64,000 nucleotides of DNA from Octopus vulgaris (Eukaryota). The DNA is taken from the NCBI GenBank assembly GCA_951406725.2, contig OX597814.1, forward strand, positions 15,314,001 through 15,378,000, written 5' to 3'. Below the pieces are notes generated by a model. That model did no database searches and was not told where the DNA came from. It was given only the letters and a program-made list of their open reading frames with translations. How positions within the stretch are numbered: the first letter of the stretch is position 1; every line of letters begins with the position of its first letter. The translations under genes were made by a program, and so were the position numbers. Of this stretch, positions 2,557-32,939 are shown in pieces.

Positions 2557-3058
2557 TTTCTTCTTTTCTTCTCTTCTTTGGAGGTTTCGGCGAGGTCCAA
2601 AGAAGAGAAGAAAAGAGACAAAAGAGGCAATTGTCCGACATGCTAATGATTCTGCCATCCATGAAGAAGACAGTGATATCGACATGAAAAGAAACCTCTC
2701 TTGGACATGTGGCCGCTACATCACAGCACACTTCGAAGACTATGCATTTGCAATCCAAGGACGGGACAGATTACGTCATATATCTGTGCGATGTGCTAAC
2801 ACATCACCCTTGTTGTGTTAAGCAGCTATCCAAAAATGTCATCAAAGTACTACCTCCCGATATGACGCGACGTGGTCACAAAAAACGATATACAATGTCA
2901 TTCGGGAAACAGACTGCCCTGGACTAAATATAGAGAATCCCCTTAATATTGAATGCATACACAAACATCAGCAGAAAGTATACTAGTTTAATATTCCCAT
3001 CATTTACTCCTGGGATAGAAAGACAATCTTTTACTCTTCGTCGGAAATTCTGAAAATA

Positions 3059-3292
3059 TATATTTCTTTACTACCCACAAGGGACTAAACACAGAGAGGA
3101 CAAACAAGGACAGACAAAGGGATTAAGTCGATTACATCGACCCCAGTGCGAAACTGGTACTTTATTTATCGATCCCGAGAGGATGAAAGGCAAAGTCGAC
3201 CTCGGCGGAATTTGAACTCAGAACGTAACGACAGACGAAATACCGCTAAGCATTTCGCCCGGCGCGCTTACGTTTCTGCCAGCTCGACGCCT
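3059..3292 (-). mobile_element. SINE family A1, full length, with TSD
   Basis: Pol III A-box-like TGGCAGAAACGT and B-box GTTCAAATTCC; flanked by AAATTCTGAAAAT (3045-3057) and AAATACTGAAAAT (3295-3307). Confidence 0.92.
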
Positions 3293-3867
3293 CAAAATAC
3301 TGAAAATGTAACTAAATGAACGTATATACATACATGAATGCATACAAACTGAATATATACGGAATACGTATAGGTGTTTTCAGGCAGACAGCGTAGCAAT
3401 CAGAGACGAAAGATTAATGTTATTTTTACTACAGCCTCGCGTGAAAGTATTTATTTTTAATCTCGAAAACATAATTAGCTCCCAATAACTCCATTATGCT
3501 AAATGGATATCTATCATTTCCATATCAGTAGAAATATATGAAATTAGCAGAGTAATAATGATCTCAGTATTATCTTGAAACAATATACAATAGCATGATT
3601 TAAATGATTGATTTCCTCAGTCATTTGTGGACATTATCTTTGAAGATTGTCACATTATTATTCTTAAATATATTGCTTCTTGCACTCCAATAGCTATCAA
3701 CGAAAGCAAATAAATCGGTTATCACCCTCTTATCCCCACACGATTATGCGTATGTGTGTCCAGTGAGAGATAGAGTGAGTAAGGGAGAAAGAAAGGGAAG
3801 GATCTAGATAGCAAGATAGATACTTACAGATAGATATGTACGCATGCATGTGTAAATACATGTATAT

Positions 3868-4097
3868 TTTTATCTATTTCTTTATTACCCACAAGGGGTT
3901 AAACATAGAGAGGACAAACAAGGACAGACAAATGGATTAAAACGAAACCCGTGCGTAACTGGTACTTAAATAACCGACCCCGAAAGGATGAAAGGCAAAG
4001 TCGACCTCGGCGGAATTTGAACTCAGAACGTAACGGCAGACGAAATACGGCTACGCATTTCGCCCGGCGTGCTAACATTTCTGCCAGCTTGCCGCCT
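3868..4097 (-). mobile_element. SINE family A1, full length, 15-bp TSD
   Basis: Family match; TAAATACATGTATAT at 3853-3867 and 4098-4112. Confidence 0.92.
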
Positions 4098-5351
4098 TAA
4101 ATACATGTATATGTATATCAACTCTATCCTGTAATAATGTCAACTTTTTCACATACACATATACCCCATTGACAGCATCGACTGAATTTGCTGATATCTC
4201 GAAAATGTTTTCTTAATTTTCTCTCTAATCCCATCTTTACCGAATTTTTCACCAACTCTTATGTACATTTGTCTAGAAAACCTTGTTTTGAAATAGAATT
4301 CTGTGTGTATTTTGAGCTGTGCGTTCAGTAATGAGTTATTATTATTTGAATTCAGCTTAATCATATCGTCTACGTCTCGACAGAATCATCGCAATATTTC
4401 CAGTAATAATAGTTTTACTTCTATTAACTAATAGGCGTATTACTTCTATTAGCTAATGGACGTTTTGATCTTAATAGCTAATAAGAATGTTGCTCTTGTG
4501 CGCAAAATTGCTCCTATTATACTATCGATGAAAAGGATTCTGTGTGTGTGTGTGTGAGTGAGTGTGTATGTGTGTTTGAATGTGTATGTGTGTAAGTGAG
4601 TGCGCGTACTGGTTTTGATTAGCTAACCGGAGGAAGAATTTTCTGATTTTGCTGACACAAGTAGAAATTATATATTTAGAGTTTTCATAAAACTAACAAA
4701 ATAATTCATCTGAATTTTGGAAGTCTAAACTCTCGTTTATTTCACAAAATGCATTTAGATTTGCGTCGCTTATTTCATTGGTTTCTAGTCAAGAATTATA
4801 ATATCTTTCAATATTTCTGTGACGGTGCAGAGGAAGTGAAAACCCGGATTTCATTAAAGTTATTAATCGAAAGTTAATACATAATTAAACTTGATAAGCA
4901 TAATCTTTAATGAAACAAACAGTCTAGAAAATTCAAACATAACTAAAGTGGTGATAGTCTATTTAGGAATTAATATTTGGATTGGCTAAACGTTAATAAT
5001 AAAAGAACGCTTCTTGCCTGCTATAATGGAATAAAACACCCGTGTAAAGCCATTGTAGAATTCTTGAAATTAAAAGATTGTTTCCGTAACTCACCTGAAC
5101 TAACTAAAGAATATATCAATAAGCATGGAGTAATTAAGTGATATCTGTGCCAAGAATGCTGAAAAAAGAAATCATCCAAAGAATAAGTCTTCGTTGAACA
5201 GAAAATTTTAACAGCAATACTTGTATTTCATAGATAAATATACGTATCTGTGCATCGTTTATATCTATATATGTATGCGTACAAAATTCCACATGTATAA
5301 AGACATATAGGTGTATATGTGTGCGTCTATGTAAGAAAGGTATAATCAGGA

Positions 5352-5486
5352 AGGCGTGGCTATGAAATTAGAACGTTGCTTCCCAACCACACATGTGGCT
5401 CAGTCTCACTGCATAGCACCTTGGGCCGACCAATGCATTGTGACTGAACTGGATTTAGTAGACAGAGGCTAAAATAAAAGAAGGCT

Positions 5487-5490
<4 letters not shown>
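5352..5490 (+). mobile_element. SINE family B, degenerate 5' half
   Basis: CCAACCACACATG...CCTTGGGCCGACCAATGCATTGTG matches the 5' half of family B. Confidence 0.7.
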
Positions 5491-5560
<70 letters not shown>

Positions 5561-5567
5561 CATACAT

Positions 5568-5598
<31 letters not shown>

Positions 5599-5626
5599 CA
5601 TATAAATATATATATATATAATATAT

Positions 5627-6007
<381 letters not shown>

Positions 6008-6203
6008 AGAGAAATGATGGCGAGAGACAAAAGATAGGTAACCTATTTTAGTAACATATCTTTTGTCTCTTCATTATTTCTCCTGTTTTTTTTATGGCTC
6101 AAATACACGGAGGACTTCAATTTGCCCTATATAGAGAGATAATTCTATCTCTAAAAAGTATATTACACACACATATATACACACACACACACACGTGTAT
6201 ATA

Positions 6204-31785: not shown

Positions 31786-32069
31786 TAAAAGCTCTTATCT
31801 TATAGCTATATAGTCATTGGACTGCAGCCATGCTGGGGCAGGGCATTGAAAGATTTATTCGAACGAATCGTCAACAGAACTTATTTCTTTAATCATGGTA
31901 ATCATCCCTTTTGCAGAATTACTTGGTTAAAGAGACGTAAGCACTGCAACACCGGTTTGTTAAGTGATGATTTTGAAAGCATACACAAATACATACAGAC
32001 ACACATACACACAGACATATATTCTTACATATGAATTACCTTGTCATTTCATAGATTGAATTTCCATTA

Positions 32070-32362
32070 TAAGCCATTTAAGAAACACACAAAAACCCTT
32101 AGATTCACTTGAACATTTAAATTAAGTTGCCAAAATATTTTCGTCGCTTTGAGACCGCGACCTGTTCACCATGCAACACGGAATTTTGTCAGTGATCAGG
32201 TCGCGGTCTCAAAACGACGAAAATAATTTGGCAAATTAAATTTAAATGTTGACGTGAATCTAACGGCTTTTGTGTGTTTCTTAAATGGCTTCCACGATGC
32301 AATTGTTTTCGTTCCAGCACACGATCTCAGATCAGGTCACTAGGTGTGCAAGTACATTTCCG

Positions 32363-32365
<3 letters not shown>
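32070..32365. mobile_element. Fold-back insert with ~100-bp inverted arms carrying G3-C8 variant HHR motifs
   Basis: Arms at about 32071-32169 and 32192-32291; followed by (TA)n. Confidence 0.7.
32185..32235 (+). ncRNA. Hammerhead-like motif with G3-C8 core
   Basis: TTTGTCA-GTGATCA-G-GTCG(CGGTCTCAAAA)CGAC-GAAA-ATAA-TT^TGGCAAA; 7-bp helix I. Confidence 0.55.
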
Positions 32366-32417: not shown

Positions 32418-32637
32418 CTTTTATTATTTTATTTGTTTCAGTCATTCGACTGCAGCCATGCTGGAGCACAGCCTTTAGTCGAACAAATCGACCTTAGGAC
32501 ATATTCTTTGTAAGCCTAGTGCTTATTCTATCGGTCTCCTTGACCGAATCGCTAAAGTACGGTGACGTAAACACGCCAACAACGGTAGTCAAGCAATGGT
32601 GGAGGTACAAACACAGATACACAAAAGCACACACACA

Positions 32638-32713: not shown

Positions 32714-32939
32714 TCTTTACTACCCACAAGGGGCTAAACACAGAGGAGACAAACAAGGACAGACAAACGGATTAAGTCGATTACATCGACCCCAGTGCGT
32801 AACTGGTACTTAATTTATCGACTCCGGAAGGATGAAAGGCAAAGTCGACCTCGGCGGAATTTGAATTCGGAACGTAACGGCAGACGAAATACGGCAACGC
32901 ATTTCGCCCGGCGTGCTAACGTTTCTGCCAGCTCGCCGC

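What the first reader, a model, noticed from the sequence alone, without database searches (positions are those of the whole stretch)
32071..32291. Natural G3-C8 covariant hammerhead, present on both arms of a palindrome
Seen: the plus arm reads TTTGTCA-GTGATCA-G-GTCG..CGAC-GAAA-ATAA-TT^TGGCAAA (7-bp helix I with one G-U). The minus arm reads GTGAACA-G-GTCGC(GGTCTCAAA)GCGAC-GAAA-ATAT-TT^TGGCAA. Both keep G3 and C8 and differ at the free position 7. Known: CUGANGA has a C3-G8 Watson-Crick pair in the active state, and the swapped pair can retain activity. Inference: a PLE lineage with a non-canonical core and UUU site that standard CUGANGA searches would miss. With U3-A8 at 12.5 kb, this hints at a hidden set of variant ribozymes.
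Basis: partly seen in the sequence, partly recalled or inferred. Interest (0 to 1): 0.75.

Follow-up and report, generated by a model that had tools for sequence, protein, structure and literature searches.

The report
Swapped-core hammerhead in octopus retrotransposon family
This palindrome is a decayed scrap of a jumping-gene family with thousands of copies, nearly all carrying a hammerhead-shaped RNA motif in which two paired core letters are swapped (G3-C8 instead of C3-G8); intact copies likely cut themselves slowly and only in pairs, but cutting is untested.

Summary
The motif is real and family-wide. The window holds the 3' end (pLTR) of a Penelope-like retrotransposon plus an ordinary inverted, truncated copy. 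Three exact patterns match 1,934, 2,077 and 315 places in the genome; 94, 98 and 98 of the first 100 listed are G3-C8, the young ORF-bearing subfamily included. A full-length element carries the motif in both pLTRs. Sister families in the same clade and genome carry C3-G8 or U3-A8, so the 3-8 pair covaries across families. Corrections: the minus arm lacks the 5' strand of helix I, the plus arm has lost the helix III palindrome, the arms are not independent evidence, and the whole palindrome folds into one hairpin, so this copy is probably dead. Against strict selection: a G3·G8 sub-lineage still made at least 45 copies, a young sister family has C9, and genomic 5' ends show uncut templates (41 of 96 at one upstream start, 1 at the cut site). 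I found no natural G3-C8 in the papers I could search; key papers were unavailable. The scan noted G3-C8 earlier in other genomes. Verdict: new variant of PLE minimal hammerheads, activity untested.

The parts
32170..32364 (+). 3' end (pLTR) fragment of the PLE family, from the common 5' start (ATGCAGCACG-type) to the long tail end, followed by (TA)n; 11-nt deletion after 32291
32185..32235 (+). Hammerhead-shaped motif: helix I 32185-32191/32229-32235, core G3 32192 to A9 32198, extra G 32199, helix II 32200-32203/32215-32218, GAA 32219-32221, helix III 32222-32227 (palindrome broken in this copy), predicted cut between 32228 and 32229
32067..32169 (-). Inverted, 5'-truncated second copy (about 91% identical to the plus arm), starting exactly at G3
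32126..32169 (-). Incomplete motif on the minus arm: core 32169-32163, helix II 5 bp, intact AATATT helix III 32139-32134, U17 32133, helix I 3' strand; no cognate 5' strand
32285..32287 (+). ATG that opens the RT/GIY-YIG ORF in full-length elements (MAYKHLPRCNC...); the fragment stops within the first 30 codons
12280..12560 (.). Separate insertion of sister PLE family B (U3-A8 core), also a forward copy plus an inverted copy; approximate bounds

Best explanation
The window holds a decayed, palindromic 3'-end insertion of a Penelope-like retrotransposon family whose terminal repeat carries a minimal type I hammerhead fold with G3-C8 in nearly all copies, and in intact elements this motif likely cleaves slowly after U17, probably only when two copies pair through the AAUAUU palindrome. 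Shown: PLE identity, family-wide G3-C8, two motifs per full element 4.26 kb apart, C3-G8 and U3-A8 in sister families, and uncut templates behind genomic copies. Inferred: the swapped pair still holds nucleotide 8 so that its 2'-OH can act in catalysis, as in the laboratory C3G/G8C double mutant; the element's protein probably assists, as reported for PAc; cutting is a slow side step that copying does not need. The window copy itself is predicted inactive.
For: PLE: pLTR joined through the 3' UTR to RT (YVDD) and GIY-YIG (PF01541 above cutoff); full pLTR-ORF-pLTR element in L198; two alternative 3' ends, (TA)n targets and inverted truncated copies. Family core: G3-C8 in 94, 98 and 98 of the first 100 listed of 1,934, 2,077 and 315 matches, with N3, N7, N8 left free; 159 of 195 aligned copies. 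Fold: in a young copy all five helix II pairs have probability above 0.99, six of seven helix I pairs 0.93 or more and the outermost 0.70. Covariation: family C (54% amino-acid identity over 742 aligned residues) is C3-G8 in 98 of 100; family B is U3-A8 in 89 of 100; A, B and C form one clade on an endonuclease tree, 99/97; their pLTR DNA is otherwise unalignable between A and C. Metagenome relatives carry C3-G8 (L336, L338) or U3-A8 (L335). Literature: C3G/G8C partly restores cleavage in a PLE hammerhead, which needs its protein (PMC11167929); G8C alone lowers the rate 10^5-fold and C3G partly restores it (PMC8495972); min-HHRs have an extra nucleotide after A9 and a palindromic helix III and cut weakly as dimers (PMC4209133).
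Against: No cleavage was measured. A G3.G8 sub-lineage has at least 45 copies on contig C16 with differing ends and flanks, so a mismatched master still copied itself. The youngest sister family has C9 in 92 of 100 copies and an imperfect helix III. Within family A, constrained positions vary less than free ones between five subfamily majorities, 2 of 40 against 12 of 75, but not significantly (p = 0.13). Only 1 of 96 genomic 5' ends lies at the cut site, and that one looks like an internal deletion. The minimum-energy fold pairs G3 with U17, a possible inactive trap, and the AAUAUU duplex alone is worth only -0.2 kcal/mol. The extra nucleotide is G where the published consensus lists H.
Confidence: 0.6

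Rival explanations
1. The motif descends from a hammerhead but no longer cuts to any useful degree. The three-helix fold is kept for another job (protein binding, template positioning, translation), or the core is simply drifting in a clade where cleavage is dispensable.
For: G3.G8 master still transposed; C9 fixed in the young sister family; templates uncut; HHR mutants do not affect insertion in vitro and Naiads thrive without canonical HHRs (PMC11167929; PMC8557442).
Against: Going from C3-G8 to G3-C8 takes two transversions that land on a Watson-Crick pair. With N3 and N8 free, the dominant state of every family found was a Watson-Crick pair. The unpaired core letters U4 G5 A6, A9, G12 A13 A14 are kept in family A while neighbouring DNA has diverged beyond alignment.
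Confidence: 0.33
2. The palindrome itself is the functional unit: the two arms form a double ribozyme at this locus.
For: Both arms keep G3 and C8.
Against: The arms lie on opposite strands, so one transcript carries only one motif. The minus arm lacks a helix I strand. The 221-nt palindrome folds as one hairpin of -129.9 kcal/mol with helix I probability 0.0. Inversions occur at many different junctions in other copies and are a described PLE by-product.
Confidence: 0.02
3. A MITE or other DNA-transposon palindrome with a chance hammerhead look.
For: 221-nt near-perfect inverted repeat.
Against: Arm lengths vary freely, many copies have no inverted arm, and the sequence is the terminal repeat of an RT/GIY-YIG element. 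The descriptor gave 0 hits in a shuffle of 1.32 Mb.
Confidence: 0.01

Closest known systems
Minimal type I hammerheads (min-HHR) of metazoan Penelope-like elements (Cervera and de la Pena 2014, PMC4209133)
   Same: Sits in the pLTR, two per full element, many solo copies, opposite-strand pairs; extra nucleotide between 9 and 10.1; G10.1-C11.1; short palindromic helix III.
   Different: G3-C8 core (the paper reports CUGANGA and a U3-A8 variant in S. mansoni); extra nucleotide is G; helix I is 7 bp; no octopus entry in the supplement text I could search.
Natural U3-A8 core variants (Perreault et al. 2011, PMC3088659)
   Same: Compensated 3-8 pair in natural sequences.
   Different: U3-A8 needs two transitions and keeps pyrimidine-purine order; G3-C8 inverts it. 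That section lists no natural G3-C8.
Laboratory C3G/G8C double mutants (PAc element, PMC11167929; review PMC8495972)
   Same: Same letters at 3 and 8; same element type for PAc; uncut RNA is the insertion template.
   Different: Engineered and assayed there; natural, fixed in thousands of copies and unassayed here.
EN+ PLEs with a CX2-5CxxC linker (Neptune, Nematis; PMC8557442)
   Same: RT then C-terminal GIY-YIG, C-X3-C-XX-C linker, tail, inverted copies, (TA)n targets.
   Different: Clade not resolved here; DKG motif reads DKS; long low-complexity 3' UTR.

Membership tests
Hammerhead ribozyme (canonical core) | C3 and G8 as letters (CUGANGA) | tested here: not met
   G3 and C8 in 94, 98, 98 of the first 100 of three patterns; no Rfam hammerhead hit at E<=10
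Hammerhead ribozyme (canonical core) | Watson-Crick pair possible between 3 and 8 | tested here: met
   G-C in family A; C-G and U-A in sisters
Hammerhead ribozyme (canonical core) | U4 G5 A6, A9, G12 A13 A14, A15.1-U16.1, H17 | tested here: met
   All present and unchanged between five subfamily majorities; U4-A6 and A9 were fixed in the search patterns but free in the BLAST-collected copies
Hammerhead ribozyme (canonical core) | Helices I and II flank the core | tested here: met
   Young copy: helix II pairs above 0.99, helix I 0.70-0.995. Window plus arm in context 0.07 or less; minus arm lacks helix I
Hammerhead ribozyme (canonical core) | Self-cleavage 3' of H17 | not testable with these tools
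   Needs a bench assay; only assembled contigs were available for RNA
Metazoan PLE min-HHR | Located in the pLTR, two per full element | tested here: met
   L198: G3 at 2742 and about 7003, ORF 2836-6035 between
Metazoan PLE min-HHR | Short palindromic helix III | tested here: met
   AATATT in the family; broken in the window's plus arm
Metazoan PLE min-HHR | Extra nucleotide between 9 and 10.1, G10.1-C11.1 | tested here: met
   Extra G, then G-C; published consensus has H at the extra place
EN+ Penelope-like element | Single ORF with RT and C-terminal GIY-YIG | tested here: met
   1025-aa open frame, YVDD, PF01541; Pfam RVT_1 did not hit, RT read from motifs and homologues
EN+ Penelope-like element | Optional tail, 5' truncation, inverted copies, microsatellite targets | tested here: met
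   3' ends near positions 147 and 195-200; inversions; (TA)n flanks
Neptune or Nematis clade | CX2-5CxxC linker before the endonuclease | tested here: met
   CQSNCAVC (definition)
Neptune or Nematis clade | Placement in an RT tree with reference elements | not tested
   No named reference PLE proteins were at hand
Non-LTR retrozyme | Short tandem repeat units each with a type I HHR | tested here: not met
   Copies are dispersed and tied to an ORF; the one array seen is a 2.18-kb duplication of flanking DNA
MITE | Fixed terminal inverted repeats | tested here: not met
   Arm lengths and junctions vary between copies

The most novel reading that the evidence does not exclude
G3-C8 is a working natural hammerhead core, fixed in an active animal retrotransposon family. 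One PLE clade has sampled three of the four Watson-Crick pairs at 3-8, plus C9 and U15.1-A16.1, so CUGANGA-based surveys miss thousands of slow, protein-assisted ribozymes per genome, and slowness is favoured because cutting the 5' pLTR would destroy the element's own template.
Probability: 0.45. Interest if true: 0.7.

Novelty: new variant of a known kind. Interest (0 to 1): 0.52.

Why it matters
C3G/G8C has been a laboratory rescue that supports the C3-G8 pair. Here it is the wild type of a family with over 4,000 exact copies, next to sisters with C3-G8, U3-A8, C3-G8/C9 and a G3.G8 offshoot. That is a ready-made natural allelic series for an open question: whether PLE hammerheads must cut, or only fold. 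It also shows that standard descriptors and Rfam undercount hammerheads in invertebrate genomes. The chemistry and element type are known, so this widens a family and does not found one.

Tried and rejected
Rfam: no hammerhead hit among the 150 of 285 rows shown for the window, the region or the young copy; miRNA hits reflect hairpins and microsatellites. The GIY-YIG upstream of L002 looked like the parent but matches family-A endonuclease copies at only 32-33%, so I dropped it; the parent was reached by walking the 3' UTR. G3.G8 as an ancestral intermediate: on the DNA tree the 2 G8 rows sit inside a C16 clade with 3 C8 rows, with C8 also outside it, and only 1 of the first 100 copies of that loop subfamily on C1-C7 is G8; derived is likelier, weakly. 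Enrichment of 5' ends at the cut site: none. Spliced 5' exon: no shared sequence seen before the common start. Expression: no RNA holder listed; all runs were contigs, so no RNA ends could be read. In the protein tree row F_L061 was translated out of frame by my error and D_L074 is frameshifted; neither is used, and the bootstrap had not fully settled. Literature searches for natural G3-C8 found none. Lunse et al. (RNA Biol 14:1499), Przybilski and Hammann 2007, Martick and Scott 2006 and Lee and York 2008 were not held, one supplement file of PMC4209133 was not searched and its figures are only partly text; any of these may bear on novelty.

Full report
Observation. The arms 32067-32169 (minus) and 32170 onward (plus) are about 91% identical. 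On the plus arm a 7-bp helix I, the core G3 U4 G5 A6 U7 C8 A9, one extra G, a 4-bp helix II, GAAA and a UU^U site are all present. The minus arm begins exactly at G3 and has no matching 5' strand of helix I; a descriptor allowing any Watson-Crick 3-8 pair finds the plus arm but not the minus arm. The plus arm differs from the family at helix III (AATAAT for AATATT) and at one helix II pair. As RNA the whole palindrome is one hairpin (-129.9 kcal/mol) in which helix I has probability 0.0. This copy is therefore probably dead.

Host. The window lies in a 2.8-Gb genome. A protein that NCBI labels Octopus vulgaris matches it at 100% over residues 8-803, so the host is very likely that species.

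The family. A 27-nt pattern downstream of the motif matches 6,061 places. Patterns with positions 3, 7 and 8 left free match 1,934 (older loop), 2,077 (young loop) and 315 (third loop) places, each with 0 reversed-pattern controls. Only the first 100 of each are listed: G3-C8 in 94, 98 and 98. In 195 aligned copies, which oversample C16 and the young subfamily, 159 are G3-C8 and 20 G3.G8. In contigs of four public runs under four coded organism labels, no other letter was listed at G3 or C8 at the 3% threshold.

It is a Penelope-like element. Walking upstream through a low-complexity 3' UTR leads to an RT and GIY-YIG frame. Many near-identical endonuclease copies lie on many contigs, with open frames up to 1,025 aa, and the pLTRs linked to them carry G3-C8. 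L198 is a complete pLTR-ORF-3'UTR-pLTR unit with the motif twice, 4.26 kb apart, the first just before the start codon; its ORF is broken by at least one stop and frameshifts. Copies end at two alternative 3' sites about 50 nt apart, often in (TA)n, and often carry an inverted truncated copy. These are described PLE traits (PMC8557442, passages). The C-X3-C-XX-C linker points to Neptune or Nematis; I did not resolve which.

Covariation. Family C, 54% identical over 742 aligned residues, has 3,879 exact matches, C3-G8 in 98 of the first 100; all 53 motifs seen beside its young ORFs read CTGATGC. Family B, the 12.5-kb motif, has 3,052 matches, U3-A8 in 89 of 100. An endonuclease tree joins A, B and C (99/97), with B and C as sisters (99/95) (two faulty rows ignored). 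Outside the second core strand the A and C pLTRs do not align (best E 0.4). A descriptor with N3, N8 and N9 free, run on 1.32 Mb of fetched loci, gave A 162 of 180 G-C, B 17 of 19 U-A, C 69 of 69 C-G, and 12 other rows, 11 of them C-G or U-A; one shuffle gave 0. Among 21 metagenome loci of related PLEs the descriptor gave 4 hits: C3-G8 in L336 and L338, U3-A8 with C9 in L335, and one A.G hit inside an ORF, at the chance level of 1 in 5 shuffles; L337 reads by eye as C3-G8 with U15.1-A16.1. So G3-C8 is likely a derived, compensated state of family A.

Results against strict selection. G3.G8 matches 144 places, 45 of the first 100 listed on contig C16; those I fetched have differing 3' ends and flanks, so a mismatched master was copied. 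Family C has C9 in 92 of 100. The within-family constraint test was not significant (2 of 40 against 12 of 75, p = 0.13); the two constrained changes were a U-A to U-G pair in helix I and the C16 G8. The predicted fold pairs G3 with U17, reminiscent of the inactive C3-G17 pairing discussed in PMC3884650 (passages).

Template ends. In 96 distinct copies from 90 loci covering 99 of the first 100 matches, 41 begin within 3 nt of one site 15 nt upstream of helix I, 6 extend further upstream, 8 share one duplicated junction, and 1 lies at the cut site, where it looks like an internal deletion. In a second set 29 of 30 begin within 15 nt upstream of helix I. I infer a transcription start there, reverse transcription from the tail sites back to that start, and uncut RNA as template. 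The site also looks like a splice acceptor, but no shared upstream exon was seen. Uncut templates agree with PAc, where HHR mutants insert normally and cleavage needs the protein (PMC11167929, section 3 part 2). They do not show that cutting never happens, since cut RNA may simply be lost.

Mechanism. Most likely the two pLTR motifs of one transcript, or of two transcripts, pair through AAUAUU to complete helix III, and the swapped pair holds C8 in place for slow cleavage after U17. The dimer model comes from PMC4209133 (parts 1-2 of 4 and supplement part 1 of 3 plus a search), and partial rescue by C3G/G8C from PMC11167929 and PMC8495972 (passages). The duplex is weak alone (-0.2 kcal/mol), so protein help is plausible. 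I put measurable cleavage at about 0.55-0.6 and a non-cutting retained fold at about 0.33.

Novelty. Natural U3-A8 is published (PMC3088659, section 8; PMC4209133). Eight searches found no natural G3-C8, but four relevant papers were not held, above all Lunse et al. on PLE hammerhead variants. Other papers seen: PMC6765202, PMC7151607, PMC6155905, PMC6257768 (passages) and bioRxiv 10.64898/2026.07.22.740005 (part 1 of 5). The scan's own notes list G3-C8 motifs in other genomes, animal, protist and phage; none matches this sequence, and I did not test them. Verdict: a new natural variant of a known kind, strong at sequence level, unproven as a catalyst; interest 0.52.

Noticed in passing
G000:C16 (L092-L111): Long copies of family A pile up on contig C16 (45 of 96 matches), as does the G3.G8 offshoot (45 of the first 100 listed), mostly between 4.8 and 9.3 Mb. 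Local hopping or a contig that tolerates long insertions; unexplained.
   Followed up: partly
L149:7300-7350; L305-L334: Very young sister family C (open frames up to about 1,312 aa, 99% identical copies) has core CUGAUGC, with C at position 9 and an imperfect helix III; 5 of 100 copies keep A9. C9 recurs in metagenome locus L335.
   Followed up: partly
L337, about 90 nt behind the ORF match: PLE hammerhead read by eye with C3-G8 but U15.1-A16.1 and the palindrome UAGCUA.
   Followed up: no
L074, L095, L105, L063, L195, L263: At least three further U3-A8 minimal hammerhead families with different helices and palindromic helix III; parent elements not traced.
   Followed up: no
window 28231 (+): AT-rich C3-G8 minimal hammerhead-like hit with a 4-bp helix I; may be another PLE end or chance.
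   Followed up: no
G000:C2:206.158-206.186 Mb (L356): About 13 tandem copies of a 2.18-kb unit containing a family-A palindrome; a near-identical junction recurs at many dispersed sites on C1, so that insertion rides inside another mobile or duplicated unit.
   Followed up: partly
L198:2700-2722: The common 5' start sits at a sequence that fits both an initiator and a branch point plus AG splice acceptor.
   Followed up: partly
window 32440-32620, 32720-32920: Common SINE-like repeats flank the insertion (label recalled, from no call).
   Followed up: no
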